Part shown: positions 1 through 20,000 of the stretch, piece by piece
Numbering within the stretch: position 1 is the stretch's first letter
Layout of the letters: each line of letters begins with the position of its first letter
DNA from: Lama guanicoe
Lineage: Eukaryota
Length of the DNA stretch: 20,000 bases
Assembly (NCBI GenBank): GCA_013239625.1
Contig: MU053347.1
Location: forward strand, 64,661-84,660
Reading direction: 5' to 3'
Notes under the pieces: model-generated
The model's database searches: none
What the model was told of the DNA's origin: nothing
What the model saw: only the letters and a program-made list of their open reading frames with translations
Position numbers and translations under genes: made by a program

Positions 1-157
1 CCAGAAAATACTATGAAAAAACCAAATTCAACTGCAGTGTGGGAAACATGAGCAGGGCCCCTAAGCAGAATGACAAGCCCAAAGTAAGATGGCCCAATGT
101 TCAGATCAGAACCAGAACAACGACCACCTGGCCCCAGTTAAATGACCACCACCTCAC

Positions 158-403
158 CTGCAATAAACTGCTCGTACTCAATGTCAGGGATGTTTCTGTT
201 GAGGTTTGAGAGGTCAAAGGAGTCGGACCAGGGAATCCAGACCTGGTTGATGTCAGGGCTCTGCCAGTGGTAGAGGTGGCCCCAAGGGGATAGCACCAGT
301 ACCGGCTCCTCCATCTTCAGCAGGGTCTTCAGGAGGAAGGCAATGTCAGACGTTCCTACGGAGGCTGATGCCCTCTGGAGGGTTCAAGTCACACAGAAGG
401 TAC
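158..403 (-). pseudogene. POFUT2: POFUT2 exon 2, disabled copy (unprocessed pseudogene)
   Basis: Minus strand reads [18 protein letters not shown] and then, after a frameshift, [62 protein letters not shown]. This matches human POFUT2 [83 protein letters not shown]. Acceptor ctttgctccctgtcag|G (AG at 405-404) and donor G|gtgag (GT at 157-156) are retained. Length is 246 nt versus 251 expected; TGA at 348-346. Confidence 0.93.
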
Positions 404-671
404 CTGACAGGGAGCAAAGGAGAGCAGGTCTTCAGGGCCAGGCCTCTGCACAGGAATCCTGGCTTAGATAGAACAGATACAACGGGAACCCCTGCACAGC
501 CAATGGCCTAGACTCCAGACACATTCAGCAGCTTCTGGATTGTAAAGTGGAGGCACTGCCCACCCATCTCCATGTGGCCAATTACTTCAAGTCCGGGAAC
601 AGTTGCGGAAGACATCTTGACGTATGTCTAACACCACTAAGCACCTGACTAGCACCTGAGCACCCTTTCTC

Positions 672-1143
672 CAGGGGCTCTCAAACTTCTTGTTCTACAG
701 AACCCTATACACTCTTAACAATTACTGAGAACTCCAAAAGGCTGTTATTTATGTGAGTTAAATCTATCAATATTTCCTGTGTTAGAAGTTGAATAAGAAG
801 TTAGAAAAAGTGTATGAATTCACTTAAAAATATTAACAATCTACTGTATGTTACCATTAATACTCTTAAACAAAATATAATTCTATTTTTCAAAACAAAA
901 ATCATTAGTGAGAAGAATAGCAGTGATTTTAATTTCTGCAAATCTCTTTTGGACTGGTGAGAGCTGAATTCTCCTATGTGCCTCTGCATTCCCTGTATTG
1001 TGATATCACAGGCCAGGGTTTCCCTGGAAAACTCCACAGGAACTAGGGAGAGCAAGAGTGTGCAAAAGGCAGGTGACATCCCGACGTTTCTATGAAAATG
1101 GTCTTGCACCTCAGGGGCCTTGGATACACTTTGTTAACTGCTG
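672..1143 (-). mobile_element. hAT-Charlie DNA transposon fossil (Charlie1b-like), inside the POFUT2-copy intron 1
   Basis: Termini CAGGGGCTCTCAAAC...CTTTGTTAACTGCTG, and internal 'acactcttaacaattactgagaactccaaaaggctgttatttatgtg' resembles the Charlie1 consensus. AT-rich island in a GC-rich background. Confidence 0.75.
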
Positions 1144-1800
1144 CCCTATCCTAGGCGGGACTCTTCTACACAAGAGCCAGGCAAGGGTCCTGGATTCTGT
1201 AATGAGTTACCGCCGCCACCGCACCCCTCCCTTCTCTGTGTGTTTCTCACAACCTCCATTACTGCAGATGAGGATGTAATCCTCAGCCAGGGCCTCTAAT
1301 CCCAGAAGACTGCTAACTTCAAGAGAGAGGGTCCCATCTACCATCCCTACACCCCGCATAGTTTATTTTGAGTCAAGCCCTAGATAACTCCTTATCGGCA
1401 CTGACCCTTGTCTTATTCCTGAGGTTGACTGAAGGAACCAACTTCTGGATGAGGATGGAACTTTCCCTGCAGATAAACAAGGCTGATAAACCACCCCATT
1501 CCAACATCTGATTCTGGGGCTCTTCAAAACCCGGGTAAGGCCCCGCTTCATCTAAGAGGGGTCCTCCGCCTGCCCTTCCCGGGGGGTTCTGGGAGGCCGC
1601 GGCCACCAAGGTAGACCCAGAATCGTGGCCCCAGCCCCAGGGCCTGAGGGGGAGGAAAGCTTGGGGCTGTGCCCAAGCCCTGCCCCGCCCCGCCCCAACA
1701 CGCTCACCGGCACCACAGCCCTCCCCAGCCACAACCCAAACCGCGATCCCACCCCGGTTCATGTCCACCGGCCCCGCCGACGGCGCGGACGTACGTTTAC

Positions 1801-1905
1801 CATCTGTGGGACTCCGCCCCAGACAGGATGTCAGCCGCCGACAGACCAGGCGAGAACTAGTCGCCCGGCCAAGCAAGCCGCCATCCCCAGCAGCAAGCAC
1901 CGCAT
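1801..1905 (-). pseudogene. POFUT2: POFUT2 exon 1 coding remnant
   Basis: Minus strand ATG at 1905 gives MRCLLLG (cf. signal-peptide FLLLG). A shifted frame gives [19 protein letters not shown], matching human [21 protein letters not shown]. Phase-2 donor TG|gtaaac (GT at 1800-1799) matches the phase of the exon 2 acceptor. TAG at 1859-1857; the ATG frame stops at 1833-1831. Confidence 0.85.
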
Positions 1906-1984
1906 TGTCCCTGGCAGCTACACACTTCCGGAGCCCGCTCCCCGCCCCAGAAGCGCACCCAGGCCCGCGCGGCACGCGGCGCCT

Positions 1985-1998
1985 GTAACCATGGCAAC
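1985..1998. promoter_or_regulatory. RFX-type X-box motif
   Basis: GTAACCATGGCAAC, a near-palindromic match to the RFX consensus GTNRCCATRGYAAC, inside the CpG island. Confidence 0.6.
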
Positions 1999-4004
1999 GC
2001 CGCGGGGCCCTCCCCTAGCGCTTGCGTTGTTCGTCCTCCTGAGTCTAGATGTGCGAGGGCAGAACATGCAGAGCCAATGGGAGCCAGGGCGCTGCCAGGA
2101 CAGGGGTGGGGGAGCTTATGGGACAGATGGGCGGGGCCGCGGCGGGCAGGGCCGCGCGGACGTTCTCACTTGCAGGTGGCGCCGGCCGGAGGCTGGGGCG
2201 TTGCTGCCACCAGTGGGCGGGGCAGCGGGGCAGCGGTGCGGCGGGGCCGGGGCACCCTCACCTGTCCGTGTGTGGGGATCAGCCTGGGCTCCACGGCCTC
2301 CGCTTGCACCGGACGTGGACCCAGGCTAGCTGTGGGCAAGATAGAGGACTGAGCCCAGGCAAGCAGGGCTGGCCAGGTAGGGCACCTGAAATGCAGATCC
2401 GCCAGGCCAGCTGCCGGCCTTGAATACGCGCTGCAAGGCAGTTTCCAAGAAGACGGGATCTGTCATAAGAGGGGAGGTAGGGCTGGGGTGCCAGATGCCG
2501 GGTTGGGTGCAGTCTCAGAGGAGAGCCATGGTGAGAGGGCGCAGAGCTGCCCCTGTTTTGGCGGGGCTAAGAGTTTGGGGTATAGGTTGGGGGTGGTTTG
2601 TGCCTTCCTCTGTGGTCTCCCCAAGAACCTTCACTCCAGAGCAAGGGTCTCTGCTACCCCCACCCCTCACTGCACTCCCTGCCTTCCCCAGCACCACCTG
2701 GGGTGTGGTCATGTCGGGGCAGGGAAGGCCCAAGGAAGGGGCTTATTCAGGGGCAGGGGCCACTCTGCAGGGATGCTGGAACTGACAGCGATGTGGTGCT
2801 TCGGAACTCCCCTGGGATGGGTTTCTAACCAGTGGGATGGAAGGGCCTCTCCTTCCTGAGGTGCAGTTGGGGGAACTAGATCCATCATGAATGTCAGCCC
2901 TGAAAATGGAGGCTGGGCTACATCCATTCCTAGAATGACAAATCAGGCCCCTCCAGCCAAGGTGACTCAGAAAGTCATTCAGCAATGTTCGGGGTCCCCA
3001 GTTTAGGCTTTCAATTAGAGCTGAGCAGCTCAGGAGGCCATATCCCTGTCCGTGGCTCCAGGAGTAGGCTTTCTGCTTGGGGACAGGCTCCTCACAAATA
3101 CCTGTGTCTTTGTGGGTCACTCCCCTCTGACAAGCTGGGAGGCAGGGTGCAGTTGTGGGAAATTGTGTTTCCATGAGGAGAGGGCCACCAAGTGCTGGGG
3201 GCACAGGAGAGGGTGAGAAAGAGTCCCGCAGCCTCTCTGGAATCAAAAAACTGGCAAAGGTGAAAAACTGCATAATTTGTTTTATTGAACAGGCTGCTTA
3301 TGCACGTTTGGAGGGCCAGGTTCAAGGACTCTGCATCCCTCCAGGACAATAGCCTCAAGAGAAGAACAGACAGAGTAGGAGGAGTTGTGGGGTTTCTCCC
3401 AGGAATGAGGCAGAACAGGGATTTCTGCAGATTTTCAAGGAGACCCCGACCACTGAGCACGGGGTTACAACCCCACGTGACCCCTGTCGTGTTTGGCTTG
3501 GGCTCTGGGTCTGGCCTGATCATGTATTCTTCCAGCTGAGTTCCAGAAACTCAGAGGGTAGACTTAGAGGGGCTGCGCTTGGAACCCGGCGTGGAGACGG
3601 AGGGTCCTTTATCCTGAGTCCCCTCAGCCTAATCACTGTAGCTGAGTTCCAACACCACCCAGGCCCCCGGGTGGCCGTGGAGGGAGAGCAAGCCTGGCAG
3701 GCGACCTAGGGGTCCCACTGCTGTGTTCTTCCCTTGTCTTCGTTCTCTTTCACCTCGGAAGGTGTGATTGTCTTGTGTCATGGTGGCCACCGCAATGTCC
3801 CTCCCACCAATCTCTTTTCTCCATCAGGTGGGGTTCCCACCCCCGCTCAGCCTTCTCTCTGCATGGATGCTGAAGGACCAGGCCCACCTGAAGTTCTGAG
3901 CTTGAGCAGTAAGTTGGAAACAAAGAAACCAATGGAAACAAAGAAGCAAGTGATTGTGGCAAAGCTCCCCACCACAGAGAAGCTGCCCTGAGTGGAAGGG
4001 AGTG

Positions 4005-4143
4005 TGTGGGCATGCCCATTTGTTTCCTGTCTCCCAGTGCTCTTCGCTTTCTTATTGCAGACCTGCATGTTTACAACAAAATGATCTGCAAAACTGAAAA
4101 TATTTACTCTCTGGGTTTTACAGAAAAGGCTGACCAGCCTCTG
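4005..4143 (-). mobile_element. MER58-like hAT MITE fragment
   Basis: 'ctgcaaaactgaaaatatttactctctgggttttacagaaaaggctgaccagcctctg' resembles the MER58A terminus CCGCAAAGCCTAAAATATTTACTATCTGGCCCTTTACAGAAAAAGTTTGCCGACCCCTG. Confidence 0.6.
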
Positions 4144-4869
4144 GTTCCAGTACCGGTCAAGTGTGGAGTACCTTTCCAGTTTGGAAACATCTGGGCAGGC
4201 CCAGGTTTGCCAAATCCCTTAAGAGTAGTTCCGGAGTTTGCTTCTAAACATTTTTACGGCTGTATACTTCTGAGCTGAGGTTGTGCTGTGTAATTCTGAG
4301 CCAGGATTTTCTCAAACTGTTTCTCATTTCTTATACCGGACACCCCTAAATTCCAAGGGGAATGGGATGTTAAGGAAGCCATGGAGTTTAGGAAAAAGAT
4401 ACAGATTTCATTTCCATTTAAGCTTCGATGTATCTCCATCCTAGGCAGTATCGGTTATGTGGTATTGATAGGGGAACTAAATAGCAACCAAATTTATAGA
4501 AAATAGTGGGTCATTGGGTACACAAGTTCTTCTTTTCAACATTTTTGTAATGTTTGCAGTTTAAGATGACCATTCCTGAGAAACAGGCAGCCTCTTAGAA
4601 TGAAATAGCATTTTCCCTGAACCATACTCAATTTTTATTTTGTAGACAGCAGGAAGGGCAATCACACATCCAACACTTGGGGACCTCGAAGATAAAATGT
4701 AACTTTCTGAGAGTACACTCCCCCAGTCTCCCCTTGCTCTTTTCACTGTCCCATTGTCCCTGAAGGCTCTTTCGTATCTTCTGCTCATGACTCCAGTAAC
4801 TCTTCCTCCTCGTTCCTCAGCTGGTAAGTTTACTTTTCTACTTTGACCAGGCAAACTGAAGCCAACAGA

Positions 4870-7163
4870 AGAGAACTTTCACCAGCAACTCCCAGCACAT
4901 CCGCTCTCCTTCTGATGTCTGTGACCTCACTCTCGCTGCCCCACCTCTTATTACAGGTGACATCGAAATCCAGATCATCCAAAGGTCGCCAGGGGGGCAA
5001 TCCATTCAATCTTCTCCGGGCTGTCACTCCCATATCCATCCTCTCTGTCACTACCTCATCTATTTTGTCCTCCTGTGAGTTGGCTCCTATCAGAATATAA
5101 ACGTCCATCGTCTTAAAAGGAACAAATAGCACTCCTTGACTCTAATTCACCCCCACCAATTGCCACCCCATGTCTTTGTGGCAAATCTTTAATGAGTAGT
5201 TTAAACTCACTGTCTGCATATTCCCTTGAGCCATCGCCTTTTGCACCCACTCTGGCTTTTCCCCTGATCCCTTGCTCTATGGAAACTGCTCTGTCAGGGC
5301 CATCAGTGACTCCACGTTGCTAAACATAGTGGTCAGTTTTTAGTCTTCATCATGTGTGGCCCTTTGGCAGCATTTGACCCAGCTCTTCCATCCCTCCTCC
5401 CCCGTGTTCCTGCTTTACTTGGCCTCCAGCCCATCGCTCTGCTTTCGATCCACTGGCTGGTCTTTTGCCAACGTCTCCTCTTTTATCCATTTACTGCGAA
5501 TGTGCCCCGAAGTTGGGTCCTGGGTCTCACCACTAACTCTCTGCTATACATTTGGTGGAAGCAACCAGACTTGGAAATTGACATGCCATCAATTTCTCGA
5601 TTTGTCCAAAACTCTGATTGGCCCTTTCCATTTGGAACTCTCCCTGATACTCATATTCTTTTTCTTTCATTCATCTTGCTTTCACATTCATACATATGTT
5701 CTACTGTGTAAATTACTTTTCCAAATTTTGAATCAGTCCATACATATCATGTAAAATGCTCAGATCTCTATTATTTCCATTAAGATGCTTATTCTACCTT
5801 AGAACCTTTCTGCATTTCTGTATTTATGTCAATAAAGTGAATAGTATTTCTACAAGCCTCATAGTTAAACAGTGTGTTTGTTTGGGGCTATTATGTAACA
5901 TGAAATAATGATACATCAACATAGTCCTTTTTCATTTAATTTTATGTAACACCAAGATGAGGTTTTTGCACTGAAGACTGGTTTTATTGAAATTTTACCT
6001 ACGTTTTGGACAGTCAGTTTATGTGAAAGCTCTCATTTCTCCCCTTTTCTGATGTATTTTCCATTTGGCTATTATAACATACACCTTGGCATGAAATAAA
6101 ATTACAAATTCATTCACATAATAAAATTAATATATTTAAATTATATTCTTTAATGTTAAAAAGAAATAAAAAATAAACCCAGACTCCTCTACCTATTAGG
6201 CATTTCTATGGCAATATCTAATAGACTCCTTAACCATGACATTGAAGAACTGAGCTTATTCCAGCCCCTTCCCACCTGCTTAGCCCCATCTTGTCCCATC
6301 CCCTGTGGATGGAGAGGACATCCATCCCATTTTCCAGGTCAAGATGTTGGAACCATGTTCTTTCTCTCTCTTTCTCTTACACACACACACAGCAAATCCA
6401 GCTTGTTAGAAAATTCTGACTACTCTGTCTTCATGAACCACCTACTCCCTGTTCCCCACCCTCCTAGAAACCACCTTCAGCCCCTTGGACACCAAATAGC
6501 CTCCTTCTTCCATCTTTGCTTTTCTACAATCTCATCCACACAGAGTCAGAGGGAGCCTATAAAAGCATACATTGAGGGGGTGGGTTTAGCTCAGTGATAG
6601 AGCGCATGCTTAGCATGCATGAGATCCTGGGTTCAAACCACAGCACCTTCACTAAAATAAATAAATTACCCTCTGCCCCCCAAAAACCAAAACAAAAGCA
6701 TAAATTGGATATCACACATCCCATCAAAACTCACTAAAAGGGTCAACATTTCATTAGGAGCCAAAGTCGTCCAAATGTCTTCCAGGACTCGGCGTGCTCT
6801 GCCTCTCCGCCCACACTCTCCCCATCACTCTGGGCGCCTCTGGCTCCGGCTCTTCCTTCTTCCTCCGGATCTATGCTGCTTCAAGTTCATTACTCCGTGA
6901 GATCTGCCAGGATTTCCTTATTCCCTCCTGCCTGCCTCGCACCCTACCGCCATCACCTGAGTTTGCTCATATCACTCTTATTTATCCCCAAGCTCTTGCT
7001 ACCCCCAACATGCTGCCTGTTTCCTCTGCTAAAACTCTGAGCCCCCTGTGATGGGGAGTCGTGTCTATTTTGTTGACTAATAAAGCCCAAGGGCCTTGGG
7101 AATGGGTATAGTTACTAGATTCCCATATGTAGTAGGAGCTTATACAGATTTGCTGAATGAATG
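4870..7163 (+). mobile_element. Old LINE-2 (L2a-like) copy, interrupted at ~5555-6177 and 6575-6693
   Basis: Degenerate RT motif at ~5276-5380 (SMETAL..ISD.HVAK.SGQF...LAAFD, cf. L2 STETAL...DLSAAFD), pyrimidine-rich L2 body, and a 3' tail 'atttgctgaatgaatg' ending ~7163. Confidence 0.75.
6575..6693 (+). mobile_element. tRNA-Ala-derived SINE, camelid Vic-1 type
   Basis: GGGGGTGGGTTTAGCTCAGTGATAGAGCGCATGCTTAGCATGCATGAGATCCTGGGTTCAAACC (A and B boxes), followed by AAATAAATAAATTACC, a C-run and an A-rich tail. 14-nt target-site duplication aaaagcatacattg (6561-6574) / aaaagcataaattg (6694-6707), one mismatch. Confidence 0.88.
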
Positions 7164-7399
7164 CAGAGGTCCTTGTCCAATCCGATGGAGCACTTCTGTG
7201 TCCTGCTCAAAGAATAACTCTCCTTTCCTCCTGAGAGGGGGTGACCACTTCCTTGGTGATCAAAGGCAAGATCTATTATCTTTATGCTGTTAACCTTAGG
7301 CGGGGAGACTGGGGATCTTCATTTATATTTTAAAATTTGATTCACTCTGCAATTTGTCTTCTGTCTAAGTATCCTTTTGAGAAACCGTTTATGAGTGAT

Positions 7400-7530
7400 C
7401 ATTCTTCCATCAGATTGAACAGGATCCAGGGGGAAGTACCAACACTGTCCCATCGGCCATCCTGTGTGTCATGTCCTGTGACCCAGTGAATACTCAGCAC
7501 GTAAGTGAACCGACAGGAGTGAGTGAAGAG
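7400..7530 (+). mobile_element. L2 3' end fragment (L2b/c-like)
   Basis: 'ccatcagattgaa...cagtgaatactcagcacgtaagtgaac...gagtgagtgaa' resembles an L2 terminus; highly diverged. Confidence 0.4.
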
Positions 7531-8249
7531 ATGGGAGCATCTCATTATTGTGGTGGCTGCACTCTGCCCGATGCCTTGAGATTTGGGGTTTACAAGTGCG
7601 GAGGGGAGAGGCCAGGTCCTCTGTGCTCTTCCTGAGTGCCCTGGCCTTACCCATTCCCCCAGCCCCCTCTGGGCAGCCAACCCGAGGAGCTGGGCCACCG
7701 GCGATTGTGCTGATCACTAATCGACCTCACCCAAAGTCCGGGGGTTGGAGCGGCCAGCACAACTGGTTGTAGACTCTGGAGTCAGGTCCTTGGAGGAATT
7801 CCTCACTGAACGATGTTTTGGACCTTTCATTTTTCTCTATAGCCTCCAGCTGAAGAAACAGATCGCCTTAGATACATGAAAGGTGAAGACACCTACTATC
7901 CCCATGGAGCCCAGGTGGGGCTGTGAGTCTGCTCTTTGTACAGCCGGTGGGCTCGTGTTGCTTTGGGCATCCCTGTGCCTGAATTCCTGCAGTACACTCG
8001 GTGGTAAGAACGGGGGTGCCTGGCAGGGAGGGAAGCGTGTCGGGAGAGTGCACAGCTGGGGAGACTTTTACCTGCGGTGAGCGGGAGCTGGCTGATGCAT
8101 GGAATCTCGGTGCAGGGAACTCTCCACACTCAGAGAGGTTCCCACTCCCGCAGGGTCCCTTTGATCAGGGTGCTGGGTTGTCAGCAAAACAGGGTCCCTG
8201 TGAGGATCATGGTGCCTTCAGGCAGTGGGAAGTGAGGGGTCCAGTGGCA

Positions 8250-8355
8250 CTTACATTAACTGTGCACCCGAAGCCAACCCCCGTCTCTTTCAGCCTGTTT
8301 CCTAATCTGCAAAATTGGAATGATGTTAACCATCCCGCAGGTTCGTTGATGGGCT
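8250..8355 (+). mobile_element. MIR SINE core fragment
   Basis: 'cagcctgtttcctaatctgcaaaattggaatgatgttaaccatcccgcaggttcgttg' resembles the MIR core CCTCAGTTTCCTCATCTGTAAAATGGGGATAATA. Confidence 0.55.
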
Positions 8356-8429
8356 GGGACACACTAGACAGCCAGGAGCTGGAATTCCTCTGTCCCCTGA
8401 TTGTTATCCTTCTTTTCCACTATTTGCTC

Positions 8430-8680
8430 TCACAAGCTGTCTCTCTGTCTCTCTCTATTCACTTGTAACATTCTCTCCTGCTCTGGTTTCATTTGATTCC
8501 CACCCTCCTCCCAATCCCCAGATGAGTGAAATTAATTTCTGTGTGTCAGTTCCAAATTCCCGGGAAAGATGCTCTGTCTCCTCTGGATTGGTTGTCCAAC
8601 CCATCAGTTGCAGCCAGAGGAGTGACTCCCTCTGTGACCAGTGGAGGGGCTCTGCCCAGACCCCAGCCACCACTGTGGGA
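8430..8680 (-). mobile_element. Old MaLR LTR fragment (MLT1J/K-like)
   Basis: 'agttccaaattcccgggaaagatgctctg...ggttgtccaacccatcagttgcagccagagg' resembles an antisense MLT1K-type LTR. Confidence 0.45.
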
Positions 8681-11560
8681 GCACATAGCTCTCCGTGGAG
8701 GAGGTACTGGCTGTGACTTGGTGTCACTAAGTGTGAAGTTTTGTCTTCTCTTGCCCCACCTTCATCCTCCTAAACAAAGATGAAAATTAAACACTCCCGG
8801 GATTTGTATCATGGAACACTCAAGGTGGGGGCTAAGACGGCTGGATTCCCTGCTGAGTGTAAGGGGCTACAGTGACTCCCCAACGAGAGCCTGTAAAGGG
8901 AACCGCACCGGCCCCACAGGACACTTAGGGCACTGAGTCTGCGTGGCATTGAGCCAGGCTTCTGACTACAGCTTAGGGATCTGTTCTGACCGGTTAGTCT
9001 TTGAAACCAACCAGCTTTGGATTCCTCAATCCCTCCCTGAGGTTTTACCTGAACCACCAGCTTCTGTATCTCTGAAGACAGATGATGAGGACCCTTCACG
9101 TAAGGCATTTGCACAGCCCTGTGCGGGAATTTGTGCTGCACGGTCTGCCAGGTGAGCTGACCGAAGTTGGTATTTTACTGATCTTAGAAATAGTCTGGTT
9201 TCCTGATGCACTGTTTCACTGAACATGCAACAGAAGCCACCTGTGGCTGATAAAAGCAAAAAAAGGGACTTAATGAAAAGATACTGGGAGGGTGCATGGA
9301 GTGGCCCGGACCAGAGCCGACCCGGGGGCCGTAGGAGATGTGGGGGAGCTCCAGGCACCAGGCTGGGTAGGGTGCTACCAGGCCCCCTGCTGCCCCATCA
9401 GGGACCCCCCTCCTCCTGACCCTCCACCTCACTGCAGGTTCATGTCCCAGCAGGGCCAGGTCACACTGAAGCCACCGGCACACACCTCAATGGGGGAGTT
9501 GGCCCCGTCTCAGCTGAGGGCGTGCCTGGTGTGGGGAGATGCCCAGTTAGAGGAAGGCGGTTCCCCTACTGTTCCGAGTTAACGTGCAAGTCAGTGCCCG
9601 TCACTCAGGAGAGCCAGGCTGGTCGGACCTCATTGTGGTGACTAGGCCGTCTGAGTTCACTTACTACTTTTTAGGTTGGAAGGCCCAAGAGGGAGAAAAA
9701 GTGGAGGTTCTAGTACTTATTTTATATTTCCCATATACCAGGTGCGGTAAGCAAGCCACTTCAGACAAGGCCCAGAGCAACCACGTAAATAGTCCACGGA
9801 GCAAGTCGTGCAGTCAGGCCTCTGCAGCCACGAAACCCGTGTCATCATCAGCTCCGTAGTTACCAGTGGATGTTGTAGGGATTTATGGGACTGTGTGCTC
9901 CTGTGGGGGCTGTGATGTGTGTGTTTAAATCCACATCTTTAGAAACTCAGCTAGAACCACAGTCACTGATTGTCTGCACGGAGGCAGAGGAGGGGAGGCT
10001 TCCAGCCTCTGGTCCAGCTTGTGAGGAGCTCAGAAGCTGCTCCTTCTGTCCTGAAAACAATACCAGAGCTGAGGGAGCTGAAAACCCACTGCTCTTCTTA
10101 GATCCACAAGAAAACTGAGGGGGAAAGCTGCTCCCAACCCAGAGAGGCAGCCGGGCAGGCTTGGAGAGCACATCTCCCAGGGAAGGACCCGCTTTTGTAA
10201 GAACCCCGGGGGCAGGCAGATTTAACAGGTCCCTAATACTAGCTGTAGGCTCAGCGTGGGGAAGTCTGAGTGTGACAACTCCAGGGGGCCAGTCAGAGGG
10301 TTCCCCTTCTCTTTTTCATGCATTTTACCTCCAGGACCGTACCCTGTTCTAAGAGTGATGATCATAGGAAAACTCCTCATGCTTCCTGCCAGGAAAGGAA
10401 AAAATATCTCTATTGAAATACACCCAGAACATTCTCTTCCATTGTAGGCAGTTGTGTTTTGCTTTTTTTTTTTAATGAGAAATTATTTTACCAGAGCCTA
10501 ACCTACCTGGGGGAAGGGAAATCCCTTCTGTGTCACCCAAATTGGGGTGGGGGGGAAGAGACACACTTGTGGAGGTCACAGCTCAGGGCACAGGCTCAAT
10601 GAGAATTACTCACAGGACTACAGATGCCCTGCTCTGTCCCCCTCCCCCAACCCCTTACCTCCATGACAGGAGGGCCCCTGTGTAATGACAGGAATAAAAT
10701 TAAAAGAAGTAAATGTCTCAGGAGTGTCTAGGGAAAACCCAAAGTCAGGGGGGAGATGAAAACAAGGACACACAGGCGGCTTTAGCCTCTCACACGAATA
10801 GCTGTAGCAAACTACACACAGCCCAGCCCCAGTAGATAAACAGAAAACCTCACAGAAGAAACTATTTATTTTGGTTCTCTTACCCAGTGCATTCCATGGT
10901 GCATCCTCGCCTAGAATTGAGTGGAAGCAAGTCCATCTCAGAAGGGACATAACTGAAGAGGAATGGCTTTCCAGACCCTGATGGGCAGAGAAAGCACCAG
11001 CCTGGGATAGAGAAAGGTGAGGGGTGGGGTAGGGGGTGGGCTGTCTTCTTCCCCAAATAAGGAATCTTCTTGAGGCCAGCACAGTGGGAGGGAGGACCAT
11101 GGGGTGGAAGCAGCCAGACTTCTTCCTGAGAAGTGATAAGATGCCTACAAGGGACCATTCAGGTGCCCAAACTGGGTCCTGACGGTGGGAGCCAGTCGGT
11201 CTGCCTCAGAGCCCAGGACTGAGGTGGGCGCACAGCAGGCTGGTCTTACTTGGCTGGATCCATTTCAATTCTCCGAAGCCTTGTGTAAAACATGAAGCGT
11301 GGACGGCCTTGTGAGCACAGCTCTGCCCTCAAGACCGGTTTCAAATCCTCTCTTCCCAGAGAACAGCATCTCTGTGCCCATCCTGGGTGACCTCACAGAG
11401 ATCACCCTAGTGCCCCAGGCTAGTAACCGGGAACATGTACCTTCCTGCAGCCAACTCCAGACGTCCACTGATGCATCATATACTGGCAAAGATGTGAGTC
11501 CCTGTGCATTGGTCTAACAGCAGAGACTCTGCCACAGACCCAAGAGGTGGTGTGTGGGAC

Positions 11561-11742
11561 ATGCAGGGGTGCAGGAGTGTACGCAGCAGAAAGGTGTAAG
11601 TGGTGGCAGGGGTGAAGGGGCTTTGGGGGATGCAGGCAGTTCAGGGAATGTGGGGGTGCAGGCAGTGCAGAAATGCAGAGAGTGGCAGGGGTACAGAGGT
11701 ATAGGGAGTGTAGGGGTGCAGGGAGGTGCTCAGGCAAGTGCA
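11561..11742 (+). repeat. Degenerate G-rich ~8-bp simple repeat (GGGGTGCA)n
   Basis: Recurrent ggggtgcag / ggggtacag / ggagtgtag / gcagtgcag units immediately left of the large array. Confidence 0.7.
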
Positions 11743-11789
11743 CATCCTCACAGTCAGCCTGACCACGGGAGGCTAGTGCAATGGTTTGG

Positions 11790-13850
11790 GGCGGCTGAGG
11801 CGGCGGCGGCTGCGGGTGGGAGGCTGCCCGGGCAAGCCGGCCGATTTCTTCTCTTCCCTGCAGCCTGGCCTGGAGGGGCCTTGGCCGCCAGAGATTCGCC
11901 AGATGTTGGACTCCAGGTAAGCTTGCTCCTGGGAGGTGGGGCGGTTAGGTCAGCGGGCGGCGGCAGCGGCAGGGGGGCAGAGCGGGGCTGCCTCTGACGA
12001 ACTGGTGGAATAGCTGCCTTGTCCCGGCTGCCGGGCCTGGGAGCGGCGTCTGCTGCCCCAGGTCGCCGGACACACCTGTCCCACTCAGCTTCCTGAGTGG
12101 GGAGTGGAGGCGGTGTCGTTAAGGTGCGGGGCTCACGGGGGGGAGGGGGGCTGCCGCGGGGAAGCCGGTCAATTCGCCCCGCTCTCTCCCGCGGCGGAGC
12201 CTGGGAGCGGCCTCCGCTGCCCTAGAGGCGGGACGCCGGTCTCCAGGTGACCTTGCTCCTGAGAGGCGGGGGCGGCGGAGCCAGGCGGAGGGGACCGTTC
12301 CAGGGAGCTGCTCCATTTCTTCTCTCCCCCGCGGCCTGGTCTGGGGGCGACCTCTGCCGCCGGAGATTTGCCTGAGTTCCGACTCCAGGTGAGCTTGCTC
12401 CTGGGAGATGGTTGTGGTGCGGTCAGGAGCTGGTAAGTTGGTGGCTGCGGGGATAGGGAGGCTGCCCCGGGGTAGCTTGTGGATTAGCTCCATGTCTGCA
12501 CCTCATGGCCTGCATACGGCCTCTGCTGCCCCAGGTTCCGGGACACCCCTGTCCCACTTAGCCAACTTGGGGCGGGAGGCAGGGTAGTCAGGGTGCAGGG
12601 GTGGTGGGGGTCGGGGGCCTGCAGAGGGGAAGCGGGCCCATTTGCTCCCATCTTCCCCGCGGCTTGTCCTGGGGGCGGTCTCTGTTGCCCTGGGTTACGG
12701 GACACGTGTATCCTAGTCAGCCTGACCCTGGGAGGTGGGCGTTGTACGTTGGGGGTGGTGGCAGCAGCGGCGGGTTTTCCCATGAAGCCGGCCCATTTGC
12801 TCCCATTTCCCCTCATGATTTGCCCTGGGGGCGTTCCCTGTTGCCCCAAGTTCGCCGGACGTCCATCTCCAGGTCAGCCTGCTCGCTAGAGGAGGCCACC
12901 GTGAGGTTAGGGGGCAGGAGTGGTGGCTGCTGCGGGGGGATGGGTATGCCTTGGGGAGTTGGTGGATTGGCTTCAGTCTCCCCGATGGCCTGCTGTGGGA
13001 GTGGCCTCTCCTGCTCCAGATCAGCAGACACACCCGTCCCATTCAGCCTGCTGGGGGAGGGGCGCCCTGGGCATTGCCTTTAAGGTGCGGGGATGGCGAA
13101 GGCAGGGGTAGAGGACCTGCAGCGCGGAGCTTGTCAATTTGCTCCCCTCTTCCCCGCGGCCAATCCTGGGGGCGTCCTCTGCTGCCCAAGAAGCCGGATG
13201 CCCGTCTCCAGTTCAGCTTGCTCCTGGGAGGCGGACGCGATGAGGTCGAGGGCAGGTGCAACCGGCCGTCGCAGCTGCCTAATGGGGCCACTTCTTGTCC
13301 TTTCCCCTGACCTAGCCTGGGGACGACCTCTCCCGCCCAAGATTCGCCTGACACTCCACACCAGGTCAGGTTGCTCTTGGGAGGTGGGCACGGTGAGATC
13401 AGGGGTTGGAGAGGAGAGGGGTGCTATCTATTGCGAGCTGGAGGATAACCTCCCATCTCTCTGGAGGCCTGATGTGGGGGCGGCCTCTGCAGCCCTCGTT
13501 CCCAGGTCACCCTTCTCAGGGTCATATTGCCCCGGGGGTGAATTAAGGTGCGGGGCGGCGGGGTGATGGCGAGGGTATGAAGCCTGCCACTTGGGAGCTA
13601 GTTGTTTAGCTCCCATCTCCCCAGCAGCTTCGCCTGGTGGCAGCCTCTGTTGCCCCAGGTTGCAAAGCACAGTTTCCCTGACAGCTTAGCCACCAGAGGT
13701 GGGCACGATGTGCTGAAGGGCAGAGGCAGCCACCAAGGCAGCGACGGAGGGGGCTGTCCCTGGCCAGCTGGTCTATTTGTTCCCATCTCTAACTTTGCTG
13801 TCCTTCTCCAGTTTATCCTTCTCCTGGGAGTTGGGCACAGTGCATGCAGC
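11790..13850. repeat. GC-rich tandem array: ~13 diverged ~160-bp monomers with ~470-490-bp trimeric higher-order structure
   Basis: The motif chain 'ccatttgctccc...cctgggggcggcctctgctgcccc...ctccaggtgagcttgctcctgggaggtggg' recurs with the cctctgctgcccc anchor near 11880, 12048, 12211, 12351, 12520, 12679, 12835, 13005, 13176, 13327, 13484 and 13644, plus a truncated unit near 13800. Every third monomer is more similar. Confidence 0.88.
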
Positions 13851-14137
13851 CCAAGGTCTGGGCTCGCCCCTGGGGAGGGGCAGAGCTCTCTTCTTCTCCT
13901 TTGTCTTTATTCTTCAGCGAAGGGGTTACTTGACCCAATTCTTAATCCTGAGAATGTGTAGCCTGTGTTACGAAAGAGCTGCTGGACAGTGTGGTTTCTA
14001 GGTGGGTTTTCACATCAGCTGATGTCCAAGACAGGCAGGAAAGCTATTACTCAGAGCTTCTTAGTCTGGAGTTGGGGGATGGCCCCGCTGCCCTCACCAT
14101 ACTTTTTAAAAATGTGTTACTTTCCTCTTTTTCCTAG

Positions 14138-14241
14138 GTGACATTTATTGGGTCACAGATTGCTGGCACGCTCATCCCTGTTCTCAAACATCTTTTAAAC
14201 TTGGGTGAAGTGATAAGTAGGGGAAGATGATTTACTGAAAG
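14138..14241 (+). other. Candidate internal exon (104 nt, probably non-coding), origin unrecognised
   Basis: Strong acceptor 'actttcctctttttcctag|G' and strong donor 'AAAG|gtaaga'. All three frames contain a stop, and it does not resemble the MRAP2 transmembrane exon. Confidence 0.5.
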
Positions 14242-15216
14242 GTAAGAATACTTAAATTCGCATTAAAGCTACATTCTGTCAATCTTTCTAAAATGATTTT
14301 CCTCTGATTCTAAATCCACGACCTAGTGAATGTTGTACTCCTGTGTAAATCATTGATCTTCACATCACATTTGTTAAATGATCAATGAGATTTGTTAAGT
14401 AGATTATTCCTGAAAGGAAAAGCTCAGGCTTTTGAGAATTCCTTGTCTGATGTCACCCAGGGAGTCACAGTAGAAGACAGATCTGATATAAAAATCCCTC
14501 AGCTGCCTGAACTGCAAAGCTTCTGGGATTACCGATCCCTGAAATGCAGGTGACTCTTGATGATATTCTAGGGGATGATTTACATGATCAGATTCTTCCA
14601 GTCCTATAAATGGGTTCCGTGGCCCCAGCCCCGGGAGAACTGGACATAAGGGCCATATCGTGTGTAGAATTCAAGGTGTAAGAGCTGGAACCACTGAGAT
14701 TCCACACTCACTAAACACAGACTCCAGAGCCTAATTGTTGTCAGGTTCTGTTCTGGATTTCAGAGTTTGTTCAGGCATGATTCTTGCCCTTCAGGAGTCA
14801 CTGCCTGGGTGGAAGTATCCTTTACACAAATCTGGGAAGGATGGCAATAAAGTAGATGGTCTGTTATGTTTCTCAATGTGCCCAGTCTCGCTCTTCCAGG
14901 CACTCATGGGGCTAACGAGGGTCATGTTACTCACTCATTCACTGATTTATTACCCTTGAATTGATCATTTGTCCCACTTTAAGTGAAACAAGGGATCAGG
15001 AGCATGAGTTTTGTCCCCTGTTCTATCACTGATTGTATCTGTCAGTTGGGCGCCCTGCGTATGCATTGTGAAATGTTGGTATTTCTTGCCCAATGGGGCA
15101 GCACTGTCAGTTCTGAGAATCAGGGGAGTCTCCTGGGTAGGACAGCACACTGACACACATGGCACCACCCCACCCCGTGAGACAGCATTGTCGATGCTCA
15201 GGTGACCCGATGTAGA

Positions 15217-15387
15217 AGCGGTGTTAAACCTGAGAACGTTTAGTGATCTTGGCAGCTCTGAAAATACAGACTACCGGTCCCTACCTCTGGAGACGCTGAG
15301 TGACTGTACCCCAGAATTCTGCATTTTAAGAAGCACTTTAACTAATTCTGATGAAGATGATCTGAGTGTCCCATTGAGAAGCATTGT
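15217..15387 (+). mobile_element. MER5A-like hAT MITE
   Basis: 'gcggtgttaaacctgag...aaaatacagact...agaattctgcattttaagaagc...attctgatg...ttgagaagcattg' is collinear with the MER5A consensus. Confidence 0.65.
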
Positions 15388-15630
15388 TGTGCGATAGAGC
15401 AATATTGAGGATTCTCTGGGAACGATGTCTTTTCAGGATGGTCCAACGGCCCTCACTTGAGACTTTCGCCTTGGGTTTAATTGTATGAGTTCAGAAGTGA
15501 TGTCTCTCACTTCCAGTGCTTGTAAGCGTGCTCTGTGCAGAGACTTGCACTCAGTAGATGGCAAAAACTATGATTCTTCAGGTCACTGAGCTAGAGTGTG
15601 AACGATCTTTTATTTTGGTTTTCTTTATAG

Positions 15631-16020
15631 CAATGCAGAGTCTCCCGAGAAGAGATTCAGATTGAACAGATTTGTGTCAGACTTTGGAAGACCGCTTCTG
15701 CCCAAGGTGTTCTCTGGCAGCGCAATGATGAATCTAGGTCCCTCTTTCACTGCTACGTCAATGAGGTGGACCACTTGGACAAGGACAAAGCTAGTATCTC
15801 AACCATTGCCCTTGACAGTGATATTCGGCTCCAGGAAGCCATCAGATGCAGCAGGTGGCCAGAGGAGGAGCCAAACAGGCTTTTGAAATGTGACATCCCC
15901 AACTTCATCAACACGGACCAGAACTCTTCCTTTGGGGAAGATGATCTCCTGATTTTGGAACCACCATTTGTTCTAGAAGATAAGCCAGTTGCTCAGACCT
16001 CACACAAAGACTTGAATTGA
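15631..16020 (+). pseudogene. MRAP2: MRAP2 last coding exon, frameshifted partial copy
   Basis: After acceptor 'ttttggttttctttatag|C' it reads NAESPEKRFRLNRFVSDFGRPLLPKVFS, then a 1-nt deletion at 15715/15716, then QRNDESRSLFHCYVNEVDHLDKDKASISTIALDSDIRLQEAIRCSRWPEEEPNRLLKCDIPNFINTDQNSSFGEDDLLILEPPFVLEDKPVAQTSHKDLN*. This matches the human MRAP2 C-terminus (NAESSEKRFRMNSFVSDFGRPLEPDKVFSRQGNEESRSLFHCYINEV...IPNFVNTDQNYFGEDDLLISEPPIVLETKPLSQTSHKDLD). Confidence 0.9.
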
Positions 16021-17570
16021 GAAACGTGTTATGTCAAGTGTCTTTCTGAAGATGTGAAGTCTGTCTTTGTATGGCAGGAATTCCCCTTTCACAAAATTGT
16101 ATGTGTTTGTGTCTGAGAAAGAGAAATGGAGACAGACAGAAAGACGGAGACAGAAGAGCGCCCCCTCAGAAGAGAGCTAGTTAAGGTGAGTTTTGTGCCT
16201 TTAAAAAACATTTGGGGTTTTGTTGGGAACAAAGTATTTACACTGTCTCATTCTCCTCGTTGGAAACCTTGGCCCCATACTCAGTGTTAGCAGCCTTGAA
16301 CGGGGGCTGGCACGGTGCGTTTCATCTGGCGCTGCCACTTCCATGCTCTGCCTTTAGCATGTTGCTTTCCCTGTCAGGGCTACCATGCTTTTAACTGAAA
16401 GGAGAGGAGTCTGGAGTAGGTGATCCATCCCAGCTCTGCTGTTTTTCAAATTTCTGATTTCGTATTCGGATGAGGCTGGGAGACACCCAGAACAGTATAA
16501 ACCAGGCCCTACCTCCAGCCTATTGCTGGGGCATCCCTCAGGTCTGTGCCTTCTACTCAACCCTTTACTGAGCCCAGCTTTTGTCAGGAGCCCAAGTGCC
16601 TACCAAGATGGCAGGGGACGTCTCTCGTGGTCATGGTGGCCATCATTTCTTTTGGTTGTGCTGAAACAGCTCTTCTGAGATCCCCCGGCCAACCTTGCTC
16701 AAACCTGAGGACAACCCTGTTGTTTCTTTCCTAGGAGGATTATCAAAGCATGGTGCATTTTATGACAATCCTGTCCCCAGGAATGCACGGAAGGTTATAA
16801 GCTGAGTGAGGGGAGCTGCCTCTGTGTCCCTGTGTCCCTGAATCTCTATCTGCTCACAGTGCCCTGCCACCGGCTACTGAGCAAGAAAATGCTATTCACC
16901 ATGTTGTGTGTTTTGCAGACGTGTAGGTGATGGTCGTGTGGCTCGTGTGTGGGCTTTCAGCTGGGATGTTGAAGAGCTTATAAATACCTCACCAACATGT
17001 ATTCGAGGTGGCCTGGTGCCACACAGACTTCATTCGTGAAGGCATCAAGCCTGCACACTGGTTTGGAAACAACTTGGTTTTGATCAGTCACACTGCATGC
17101 ATGACTCGCTGCTAATATCTGGGTGGTTTTTCCATTTTAGATTTATTCACCCAGTGTCTTGCTTAAGCTGAAAAATTCATTTATTTCACTAGAATATTCT
17201 CTGATTCTTTGATTTCACACTTCCAGTTGTTTAATTCCTTTAAAAATTGTTCTGTGTTTATAATGCCTCCTTATTTCTATCATCTCTAGGTTCCCAGTGG
17301 CCTGAGCCATGCACCAGATTTTATTTAGGAACTGTTCCACCAAAAGAAATCCCCTCGCCATAATATCTTTAGAGGAAAATACTATTCTTTAAGACTCTAA
17401 CACTAAATCGTAGAACAAGCATGGAATATTTCTTGTAGTTAATACATGTTCATGCAAAAAAACTTGATATTTTCATTGAAGAATGTTGATTTTGATAACT
17501 TTCACTAATGTGAATATTATTATTCATAATTTAAGTAACCAAATAAAACCAGTTATTTATTATTAAGAAT
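16021..17570 (+). other. MRAP2: Probable MRAP2-derived 3' UTR
   Basis: Unique sequence following the stop codon that becomes AT-rich and ends near an AATAAA. The extent is inferred, not aligned. Confidence 0.5.
17542..17547 (+). terminator. Candidate polyadenylation signal
   Basis: AATAAA about 1.5 kb after the MRAP2 stop, in an AT-rich context. Confidence 0.5.
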
Positions 17571-17829
17571 GAAAACTATTTACATGGTGTCTCAATTAGA
17601 CAACTGAAATGTATTTAAAAGATGGAAAAATACCCGTGATGACACCATCTTTTTTATAAACTAAATATCAAGAACTGTGCAGGGTTAAGATTTGACCACC
17701 TGCAAGCTGCCAAGTTGGCATGAGGTAGTTTGTGGATGCTGCCAGAAGACAGGACACTCCCCCAGGATCAGAGTCAAAGGACTTCCTGCCAGCACAGCAG
17801 GCAGCCTGTGGTTCATGTTCATGTTGGTT

Positions 17830-18485
17830 CCTGAGTTCCTTTCCTATTGCTGTTGTAACAAAGGACCACAGACTCAGTGGCTTAAAGCAATACACATTCA
17901 TCTTCTCACTGTTCTAGGGTGCAGAAGTGCAAAGTCAATGTCCGTGGGCTAAAACCAACATATGGCCAAGGCTACATTCCACACCGAGGCTCTTGGGAGG
18001 GATTCATGTTCCTACCTTTCCCAGCTTGCAGAGGGGCTCACACTCCTTGGCCCAGGGCCCTGTTTCACTGTGACTTCTGCTGCCACTTCACATCTCTGTC
18101 TCTGACCAATCTGCTTCTGTCCTCTATGGACCTCCGTGATGACGTTTGCTTTCCCACAGTGATCTGCCATCCCAAGGTCCTTGACACTCACACCTGCAGT
18201 GTCCCTTTTGCCATGCACAGTGACATTCCCAGGTTCTAGGGATCAGACCATGGACATATTGGGGGCCATTATTCTACCAAATTCTTCCCTTTGGCCCCAC
18301 TGGTTCTTGTCCATCCCACATGCAAAATGCATCCACCTCATCCCAACACCCTCCAGAGTCTCATTTACTACACCATCAACTCAAAATCCAACATGTAGTC
18401 TAACTAATATCAGCTCAAAAGCCTAAATATTTTCATCCTCATCACCTAAGTCAGGCATGATTGAGACCCTGGGTGTGATCTTCTC
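17830..18485 (-). mobile_element. MaLR MLT1 (MLT1C/D-like) LTR (~17830-18278) plus adjoining internal fragment
   Basis: 'ttcctattgctgttgtaacaaaggaccacagactcagtggcttaaagcaatacacattcatcttctcactgttctag...ggacatattgggggccattattctacc' is a typical antisense MLT1 LTR, followed by 'cccacatgcaaaatgcatccacc...catcaactcaaaatcca' (MLT-int-like). Confidence 0.8.
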
Positions 18486-19370
18486 TGCTCAAAATCCTGC
18501 AATGGCTTCTCATTTCACTCAGTGAAGAAGCGAGAGTCCTTATGGTGACCTTACAGCTTTCCTCCCCCTCCCCAGGCTGAGCTCATCTCCGGTTTTCTCC
18601 CTGGCTCACTCCGTTCCAGCCACATTGGCCTCCCTGCTGGCCCTTGGGGACATCAGACATGTACCCACATGCCTGTTGCCCTGGCTGGTCTCTGTCCAAC
18701 TCATATGCTGAAGTCCTAAGCTCCAGGACTACAGAACATGACCCCATTTGGTAATAGGGTTGTTGCAGAGGTCATTGGTTAAGAAGAGGTCATTAGGGTG
18801 GGCCTTAATCCAGTATGACTTGTGTCCTGATAAAAAGGGGCAATGTGGACACAGAGACACGTGTACATGGGAGATGACGTGATGAAATGTGGAGAGAAGA
18901 CGGTCGTCTCCAAGCCAAGGAGAGAGGCCTGGACCAGCGTCTCCCTCCCAGCCCTCAGGAGGAACCAGCCCTGCTGACACCCTGCCTGCAGACTCCCCGC
19001 CCCCAGGGCTGTGAGACAGTGAGCCTCCGTGGTTCCCGTCACCCAGTGTGCGGTGCTGTGTTAGAGGAAGCTCAGCAACTAGCACCCCCTTCTCAAGGTC
19101 CTCAGTGAGGCCAGCTCTGGCCATCTCATTTTAAACTGGAAACTGCCTTCCCCTTGTCTCTGCCCCAGAAACCCCCTCTCCCTGATCATATTATTTCTAT
19201 CACTTTCTAGAATACCATATATTTCACATGACTGTGACGACTGTAGTTTATATTCTGCTCTTCCTCAGTCCTACAGGGAAAAGGATCCTTATTTGTTCAC
19301 TGACGGACCTCAGGTGGCTTGACCAGTACCCGTGGCACAGCAGTCAATACAAATTGGCCGGATGGAAGGA
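18486..19370 (+). mobile_element. L2a-like 3' fragment split by an MLT1 LTR
   Basis: 'ctgctcaaaatcctgcaatggcttctcatttcactcag', 'ttccagccacattggcctccctgctg', and the terminal 'ttgttcactga...tggcacagcagtcaatacaaattggccggatggaagga'. Confidence 0.65.
18674..19085 (+). mobile_element. MLT1B-like solo LTR
   Basis: 'tcatatgctgaagtcctaagctccagg...agggtgggccttaatccagtatgacttgtgtcctgataaaaagggg...caagccaaggagagaggcctgg...aaccagccctgctgacacc...ctgtgagacagt' is collinear with MLT1B. Confidence 0.82.
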
Positions 19371-19480: not shown

Positions 19481-19597
19481 ATGAACCTGAGGGAGGCTTG
19501 AGTGATTCCCTTTCCATTGATTAGTATTTCTCAGGTGTCTCTTTTTCTGGCTCTAACTTTTGACTTCTTTCTGTTATTCTACTAAGCTTTCAACCAG

Positions 19598-20000
19598 TTT
19601 TTTTATTTTTAATATTTTTATTGATGTATAATCATTTTACAGTGTTGTGTTAAATTCCAGTGTTCAGCAGAATTTTTCAGTCATTCATGGACATATACAC
19701 ACTCATTGTCATATTTTTTTCTCTGTGATTTATCATAACATTTTGTGTATATTTCCCTGTGCTATACAGTGTAATCCTGTTTATCTATTCTACAATTTTG
19801 AAATCCCAGTCTATCCCTTCCCACCCTCTACCCCCCTGGTAACCACAAGTCTGTATTCTCTGTCCATGAGACTGTATTTATGTTTTTTATTGTTTGTTTT
19901 TGTTTTTTAGATTCCACATATGAGCGATCTCATATGGTATTTTTCTTTCACTTTCTGGCTTACTTCACTTAGAATGACATTCTCCAGGAGCGGAGCATCC
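19598..20000 (-). mobile_element. Young LINE-1 3' end (camelid-type), antisense, running off the window
   Basis: T-rich tail, then 'tttccctgtgctatacagt', 'ccctggtaaccacaagtctg', 'tttagattccacatatgagcgatctcatatggtatt' and 'ctggcttacttcacttagaatgacattctccagg', typical of the reverse complement of an artiodactyl L1 3' UTR/ORF2 end. Confidence 0.88.

What the first reader, a model, noticed from the sequence alone, without database searches (positions are those of the whole stretch)
158..17570. Mosaic locus: intron-containing fragments of two unlinked genes (POFUT2 and MRAP2) within 14 kb
Seen: both fragments keep splice sites and flanking genomic sequence, so they were copied as DNA rather than retroposed, and both are disabled. 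Known: human POFUT2 is at 21q22.3 and MRAP2 at 6q14. Inference: this is a lineage-specific mosaic segmental-duplication hub like primate pericentromeric or subtelomeric duplicon patchworks, with at least one junction between ~2300 and ~14000.
Basis: partly seen in the sequence, partly recalled or inferred. Interest (0 to 1): 0.7.

Follow-up and report, generated by a model that had tools for sequence, protein, structure and literature searches.

The report
Camelid multi-copy POFUT2–MRAP2 chimeric duplicon
This is one decayed copy of a patchwork DNA block, made from the front end of one gene and the tail end of another, that was copied to many places in camel-family genomes and probably makes spliced RNA but no working protein.

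Summary
Observation confirmed: POFUT2 exons 1–2 (minus strand, broken) and the last MRAP2 exon with its 3′ region (plus strand, frameshifted) lie 13.7 kb apart with splice sites kept. It is neither a misassembly nor either working gene; intact camel POFUT2 and MRAP2 exist separately. It is also not a one-off hub. Predicted camel and alpaca gene models overlap to tile the whole stretch, and at least 20 Bactrian loci on 8 contigs carry the middle part. The MRAP2 copies share one net 4-base loss across both camelid lineages, so the block is older than about 16 million years. Frames differ between copies and the MRAP2 frame is no better conserved than its neighbours, so the RNA is probably non-coding. 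No read-level evidence was obtained; breakpoints are unmapped. This scan noted related POFUT2-bearing camelid blocks before on other DNA (with TRAPPC9, ANO6); MRAP2 was in none of those notes. No paper on it turned up in my searches. New member of a known kind.

The parts
158..403 (-). POFUT2 exon 2 copy, AG/GT kept, 5-base loss near 345-348 private to this copy among the models compared
   Evidence: 48/62 identical to camel POFUT2, 60/63 to the closest camelid POFUT2-like models
404..1800 (-). POFUT2 intron 1 copy (inferred from position between the two exons)
   Evidence: splice sites; camelid POFUT2-like models match parts of it
1801..1925 (-). POFUT2 exon 1 copy, stop at 1857-1859 and frame change; upstream limit approximate
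1500..2450 (.). CpG island / captured POFUT2 promoter; holds the window's only ETS-type motif (1924), the only plus-strand match to the X-box pattern (1985), a CCAAT box (2072) and four of five GC boxes; motif patterns are recalled
   Evidence: GC 0.69, CpG o/e 0.67 against 0.25 in 2500-11700
2118..2402 (+). first plus-strand segment of predicted transcripts (C. ferus LOC116661730), spliced to the 7414 exon
   Evidence: P0218, P0222: 71% over 95 aa
2450..11730 (+). middle block of unknown source with plus-strand exons used by camelid models: ..4956, 7414-7500, 7843-8000, 8294-8340, 10888-11016, 11360-11493, all GT-ended and (except the first) AG-started in this copy
11734..13843 (+). GC-rich tandem array, 12 near-full and 2 partial units of about 157 bp, 58-64% alike, with a three-unit period near 480 bp; units hold mini-exons (11864-11916, 12200-12388) used by camelid models
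   Evidence: CpG o/e 0.51
14138..14241 (+). AG/GT-bounded exon used by camelid models, just after the GC drop near 13950-14000 that may mark the junction into MRAP2-derived DNA
15631..16020 (+). MRAP2 last coding exon copy; net 4 bases shorter than the parent before residue motif SRSLF, shared with 6 camelid models; 129 open codons, parent stop position kept
16021..17570 (+). probable MRAP2 3' UTR copy ending at AATAAA 17542 (identity with the parent UTR is inferred, not aligned)
   Evidence: related mammalian read-through translations match its start (P0033)

Best explanation
The window is one decayed copy of a camelid mosaic segmental duplication. Shown: the 5' end of POFUT2 (promoter island, exons 1-2), a middle block, a GC-rich mini-exon array and the last exon of MRAP2 are joined in the same order in camel and alpaca gene models, at many loci, while both parent genes stay intact elsewhere. 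Inferred: the pieces were joined at DNA level in a camelid ancestor more than 16 million years ago and then copied as a unit to dozens of sites. Inferred: the captured POFUT2 CpG island fires in both directions, giving short POFUT2-like RNAs one way and, the other way, an alternatively spliced RNA that runs through cryptic exons and ends in the captured MRAP2 exon and its poly(A) signal. That RNA is most likely non-coding and evolving near neutrally; annotation pipelines call it dozens of 'uncharacterized', 'POFUT2-like' and 'MRAP2-like' proteins.
For: Tiling by models: P0098 links 9471-9358, 2505-2368 and POFUT2 exon 2; P0218/P0222 link the island to 7408-8002; P0211 links 4915 to the MRAP2 exon; P0002, P0030, P0023, P0031 link 11435 or the array to the MRAP2 exon. 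In Bactrian camel the POFUT2-like LOC141579766 and the MRAP2 chimera LOC141579767 have consecutive ids and accessions on one 71.4 Mb contig. At least 20 Bactrian LOC ids on 8 contig lengths carry the middle part. Intact parents: P0038, P0203, P0204. MRAP2 copies are one group, 100/99, with a shared net 4-base loss. 0 of 54 camelid POFUT2-like models carry the exon-3 start motif. Exons are read in two or three frames in different models; MRAP2-frame identity 80-90% is like alternative-frame 79-86% and other exons 86-90%.
Against: No reads were laid, so neither the junctions in this copy nor its transcription are shown directly. The models are predictions; I did not see their RNA support, and multi-mapping reads can create models at silent copies. 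No single model covers island to MRAP2 exon; the chain is pieced from several copies and species. The 12200 exon has a weak acceptor here. The source of the middle block is unknown, so the number of junctions is unknown. Conservation was compared at protein level between different loci, not by dN/dS.
Confidence: 0.7

Rival explanations
1. Same amplified mosaic block, but transcription is noise or absent at most copies, this one included; the models come from multi-mapping reads and the array or another site, not the POFUT2 island, starts what RNA there is.
For: Only 2 of 264 mapped proteins join the island to the middle block; the array is itself CpG-rich (o/e 0.51-0.64); this copy has stops in the long camel frame at two exons.
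Against: Splice sites of the model exons are intact here at about 10% protein-level divergence; the island keeps CpG o/e 0.67 and its promoter motifs; many isoforms per locus in four camelid species.
Confidence: 0.17
2. A young protein-coding gene family: some copies make a chimeric protein with a new N-terminus and the MRAP2 C-terminal 100 residues, without the transmembrane part.
For: 129 open codons to the parent stop position here; 6 camelid models read the same frame; 19 of 512 exon combinations of this copy give a Met-started frame into it.
Against: Open frame expected in about 40% of neutral simulations at this divergence, substitutions only; annotated copies are selected for open frames; P0023 stops early, P0002 reads past the stop, P0211 is frameshifted; exon chains used by P0002 and P0031 stop after 45-48 codons in this copy; no Pfam family in 7 models.
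Confidence: 0.08
3. The window is the working MRAP2 locus with a sequencing error and a POFUT2 fragment inserted in its long last intron.
For: Only the last MRAP2 exon is in the window and the parent's last intron is long (recalled).
Against: Camel MRAP2 (P0038) is 90/100 identical to whales but only 78/100 to the window; the window groups with the copies, 100/99; the frameshift is shared with 6 models from camels and alpaca.
Confidence: 0.02
4. Misassembly joined unrelated contigs.
For: No public run holds more than 28% of the sampled words of 7301-17300; no reads were laid.
Against: Independent camel and alpaca annotations show the same order of parts; no N in the window. A low word share is also expected where assembled contigs collapse many similar copies.
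Confidence: 0.03

Closest known systems
Primate core duplicons and mosaic segmental duplications (LCR16a/NPIP; passages of PMC9132208 seen)
   Same: Block of about 20 kb, many copies, spread between chromosomes, transcribed gene models inside, joined to other duplicated pieces.
   Different: Camelid; built from POFUT2 and MRAP2; no sign of a kept reading frame or positive selection; variable flanks only suggested by unchecked notes of this scan.
NPEPPSP1-TBC1D3 fusion (PMC12871316, abstract seen)
   Same: A partial gene duplication brings its promoter next to another duplicated piece and drives a spliced fusion RNA.
   Different: There the promoter reads in its own sense direction into a coding gene at one locus; here the reading is away from POFUT2, into cryptic exons, in a unit amplified many times.
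Pseudogene-rich repetitive blocks of alpaca chromosomes 11, 17 and 36 (PMC13751797; abstract, first part of the discussion, passages and the xlsx supplement seen)
   Same: Camelid multi-copy gene fragments attributed to segmental duplication and decay.
   Different: Those hold ATF5, FMN2, NEK10, uS3m, ACTB, ABHD17A pieces and are reported absent or reduced in camels; POFUT2 and MRAP2 occur 0 times in the text, and this family is abundant in camels.
MRAP2 and POFUT2 (parent genes)
   Same: Exon sequence, splice sites, stop position.
   Different: No MRAP domain or transmembrane exon; POFUT2 ends after exon 2 in the family; both broken in this copy.

Membership tests
Segmental duplication (over 1 kb, typically over 90% identical; PMC9132208) | Genomic DNA with introns copied, over 1 kb | tested here: met
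   Splice sites and intron or flank matches in camelid models across 15 kb
Segmental duplication | Copies over about 90% identical in DNA | tested here: inconclusive
   No DNA of other copies obtained; 85-90% protein identity corresponds to about 93-95% DNA in a neutral simulation
Mosaic duplication block | Pieces from two or more unlinked parents, parents intact elsewhere | tested here: met
   Intact camel MRAP2 and POFUT2 records on contigs of different length
Core duplicon | Many interspersed copies on several chromosomes | tested here: met
   At least 20 Bactrian LOC ids on 8 contig lengths of 25-164 Mb; chromosome identity inferred from length
Core duplicon | Shared core with different flanking duplications at different copies | not testable with these tools
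   Needs genome alignments; only unchecked notes of this scan point to TRAPPC9 and ANO6 neighbours
Core duplicon | Core is transcribed | tested here: inconclusive
   Many spliced predicted isoforms; no reads laid
Core duplicon (NPIP type) | Embedded coding family under positive selection | tested here: inconclusive
   Frames vary between copies and no frame is better kept; dN/dS not computable without DNA
Pericentromeric or subtelomeric duplicon patchwork | Position near centromere or telomere | not testable with these tools
   No genome held
Processed pseudogene | Introns removed | tested here: not met
   POFUT2 intron 1 and the MRAP2 acceptor are present
MRAP family protein | MRAP domain (PF15183) with transmembrane helix | tested here: not met
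   0 Pfam families for the window frame, P0002 and P0031; no match to the N-terminal half of MRAP2 in the window

The most novel reading that the evidence does not exclude
Camelids have their own core duplicon: a transcribed POFUT2-promoter plus mini-exon-array cassette that spread over many chromosomes, captured different 3' ends, and in some copies gave rise to a new protein carrying the MRAP2 C-terminal tail without its membrane anchor, able to modulate melanocortin or other receptor signalling in energy balance (role of the tail recalled, not tested).
Probability: 0.08. Interest if true: 0.8.

Novelty: new member of a known kind. Interest (0 to 1): 0.42.

Why it matters
Interspersed, transcribed duplication cores are best known from primates (recalled). 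A camelid family of this kind, older than the camel-alpaca split and present at 20 or more loci, gives an independent case for asking whether a captured CpG-island promoter favours spread. In practice it explains dozens of 'POFUT2-like', 'MRAP2-like' and 'uncharacterized' camelid protein records and warns that variant calls, expression counts and selection scans on camel MRAP2 and POFUT2 can be confounded by copies.

Tried and rejected
No whole genome was held, so tiles could not be mapped. No read-level data were obtained, which leaves junction support, copy depth and splicing of this copy open. Two metagenome scans, with the MRAP2 frame and with P0219, confirmed 0 of 101 and 0 of 243 pattern matches. 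Pfam on 178 stop-free frames of 50 aa or more (array-internal frames, frames at one short repeat and the last 500 bases left out) found only O-FucT in 1 of 178; weak, as it also misses the MRAP2 exon. Rfam gave one tRNA-like hit. PDB has no match to the MRAP2 tail. ESM Atlas gave no usable hit for P0055. Tandem Repeats Finder missed the array; it was found. One search had two exon ends off by one base; one search replaces its splice results. Paper searches: MRAP2+camel+duplication (3 papers, none relevant by listing); POFUT2+camel+copy number (0); POFUT2+alpaca (1, unrelated by listing); searches listed none on this family. Term searches found POFUT2 and MRAP2 0 times in PMC13751797, PMC12127551 and bioRxiv 2025.08.28.672513, 'fucosyl' 0 times in PMC6598621 and PMC6618069. 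Subscription papers (including the VicPac4 assembly paper, not found in the library), bioRxiv supplements and the slide supplement of PMC13751797 were not seen and could list these loci. The satellite consensus cells in that paper's table were cut at 400 letters and were not compared with the window.
Full report
Observation. The window is mammalian DNA without N; no genome is held for it. On the minus strand, 158-403 is a copy of POFUT2 exon 2 with AG and GT ends; its downstream frame matches human POFUT2 in PDB 4AP5 (E 2e-26), and a 5-base loss near 345-348 shifts the frame. Exon 1 ends at 1801, with a stop at 1857-1859 and a frame change. On the plus strand, 15631-16020 is the last coding exon of MRAP2, after an AG acceptor, with a frameshift near 15716 and an AATAAA at 17542.

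Not the working genes. The databases hold intact camel MRAP2 (P0038) and POFUT2 (P0203, P0204) on contigs of different length. Camel MRAP2 is 90/100 identical to whale MRAP2 over the last 100 residues but 78/100 to the window. Camel POFUT2 is 59/62 identical to cattle over the exon-2 segment but 48/62 to the window. All best hits are camelid: 90/100 to an alpaca MRAP2-like model, 60/63 to alpaca and wild-camel POFUT2-like models. The species cannot be fixed from this.

A many-copy family. Searches with the two fragments returned camelid 'MRAP2', 'MRAP2-like', 'POFUT2-like' and 'uncharacterized' models. Of 267 stored proteins 264 map to the window; 65 of them join two or more of its blocks. Counted by hand, at least 20 Bactrian LOC ids carry the middle part, on 8 contig lengths (24.9, 70.6, 71.1, 71.4, 93.9, 113.8, 149.7, 164.1 Mb). 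This is a lower bound: clusters are listed to 15 members, and 40 of 84 were read for the largest. Bactrian POFUT2-like records occur on five of these same lengths, with accession numbers interleaved with those of the uncharacterized models. LOC141579766 (POFUT2-like) and LOC141579767 (MRAP2 chimera) are consecutive in id and accession on the 71.4 Mb contig. That accession order follows position is my background knowledge.

The joins are old and real. Overlapping models tile the stretch. P0098 (Bactrian) joins 9471-9358, 2505-2368 and POFUT2 exon 2 on the minus strand. P0218 and P0222 (wild camel) start at 2118-2402 in the CpG island and splice to 7408-8002. P0055 and P0064 run from the middle block through the array to 14205. 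P0211 (dromedary) runs from 4915 into the MRAP2 exon. P0002, P0030, P0023 and P0031 (both camels and alpaca) join 11435 or the array to the MRAP2 exon. The window and 8 camelid MRAP2-exon copies form one side of a branch, 100/99. The window and the 6 models that read the exon from its first base have 34 codons before SRSLF, where the parents have one base plus 35 codons: a shared net loss of 4 bases. The block therefore predates the Old World-New World split, given as 16.3 million years in PMC12127551 (passage). The tree does not resolve which true MRAP2 is sister to the copies, so the upper age rests only on finding no such copy outside camelids among the hits. The window and 20 POFUT2-like models form one side of a branch at 93/94, bootstrap not settled. 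None of 54 camelid POFUT2-like models carries the exon-3 start motif, so the family's POFUT2 piece probably ends in intron 2, left of the window.

(a) 11734-13843 is a tandem array of 12 near-full and 2 partial units of about 157 bp, 58-64% alike, with a three-unit period near 480 bp; units hold AG/GT mini-exons used by the models. (b) A plus-strand exon chain (..4956, 7414-7500, 7843-8000, 8294-8340, 10888-11016, 11360-11493, 11864-11916, 12200-12388, 14138-14241, 15631-) keeps its GT donors and, apart from a weak site at 12200, clear acceptors in this copy. (c) The island at 1500-2450 keeps CpG o/e 0.67 against 0.25 in the middle block and holds ETS-type, X-box, CCAAT and GC-box motifs (patterns recalled, no shuffle control). 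In human, LINC00205 lies near POFUT2 (passages in PMC8960578 and PMC8578789); that it is head-to-head is recalled.

Mechanism. Shown: order of parts, many copies, shared lesion, intact parents. Inferred: DNA-level joining in a camelid ancestor, then amplification; the captured island acts in both directions; the plus-strand RNA picks up cryptic exons and uses the captured MRAP2 acceptor and poly(A) signal as its end. Against: only 2 mapped models join the island to the middle block, no single model spans island to MRAP2 exon, the models are predictions whose RNA support I did not see, and no reads were laid.

Coding or not. The frame 15631-16020 is open for 129 codons without a Met; 19 of 512 exon combinations give a Met-started frame into it, but the chains used by P0002 and P0031 stop after 45-48 codons here. 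In neutral simulation, 78% protein identity means about 12% DNA change, and about 40% of runs stay stop-free, indels ignored. Among stored proteins the 7843, 11360 and 11864 exons are read in two, two and three frames. Identity of the window to the models is 80-90% in the MRAP2 frame, 79-86% in the shifted frame and 86-90% in five other exons; these are different loci, so the comparison is rough. P0023 ends early, P0002 reads past the stop, P0211 is frameshifted. No Pfam family matches 7 models. Non-coding is the better reading; a coding subgroup is not excluded.

Open points. The breakpoints are unmapped; the GC drop near 13950-14000 is a candidate for the MRAP2-side junction. The middle block may be POFUT2's own upstream flank or a third source; its only hit without a camelid name is an unnamed 74-residue record, P0219, 53% over 45 residues at 7855-7989. 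Chromosomal position is untested.

Comparison and novelty. It works like a primate mosaic duplication with promoter capture (PMC9132208, passages; PMC12871316, abstract). It meets the tests for DNA-level, mosaic and many-copy, but variable flanks, transcription and selection are untested or inconclusive, so 'core duplicon' stays a hypothesis. PMC13751797 describes other pseudogene-rich alpaca blocks and does not name these genes. Ten paper searches found nothing on this family. Earlier notes of this scan on the same genome report amplified TRAPPC9-POFUT2, KLHL2-ANO6 and USP3-COL12A1-MAPK1 blocks, a spliced GC-rich array, and a dead ANO6 copy left of this window; I reached my reading before seeing them and treat them as leads.

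Verdict. Real, camelid-wide, partly present in public annotation, not found described in the papers I could search; a new member of a known kind. Interest 0.42.

Noticed in passing
middle block, within 2450-11730: One tRNA-like Rfam match (43.6 bits), probably a tRNA-derived camelid SINE (label recalled).
   Followed up: no
window 17690-19070: Stretches that look like old MaLR-type solo LTR remnants (MLT1; label recalled, not tested); probably flank copied along with the MRAP2 3' end.
   Followed up: no
window 19590-20000: T-rich start and sequence resembling the 3' end of an L1 element on the minus strand (recalled; GC 0.34).
   Followed up: no
window 11540-11735: Purine-rich decayed short repeat just before the array (families D8 and D10); may be the array's left junction.
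   Followed up: no
P0249, P0250 and P0038: POFUT2-like records share a longest-contig length (99,165,517) with true camel MRAP2, so a family copy may sit on the parent's chromosome; distance unknown.
   Followed up: no
window 7790-7989, P0219 cluster: Unnamed 74-residue records on up to 31 contigs match the 7843 exon region at 53-73%; possibly the source locus of the middle block in another mammal. A metagenome scan found no locus.
   Followed up: partly
P0088-P0125, P0234-P0264: Camelid POFUT2-like models end after exon 2 in several recurrent new tails (GFTW 11, GTLCS 11, GL 10 of 54), pointing to further captured last exons left of the window.
   Followed up: partly
window 12684-12698: A second X-box-like match, on the opposite pattern orientation, inside the array.
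   Followed up: no
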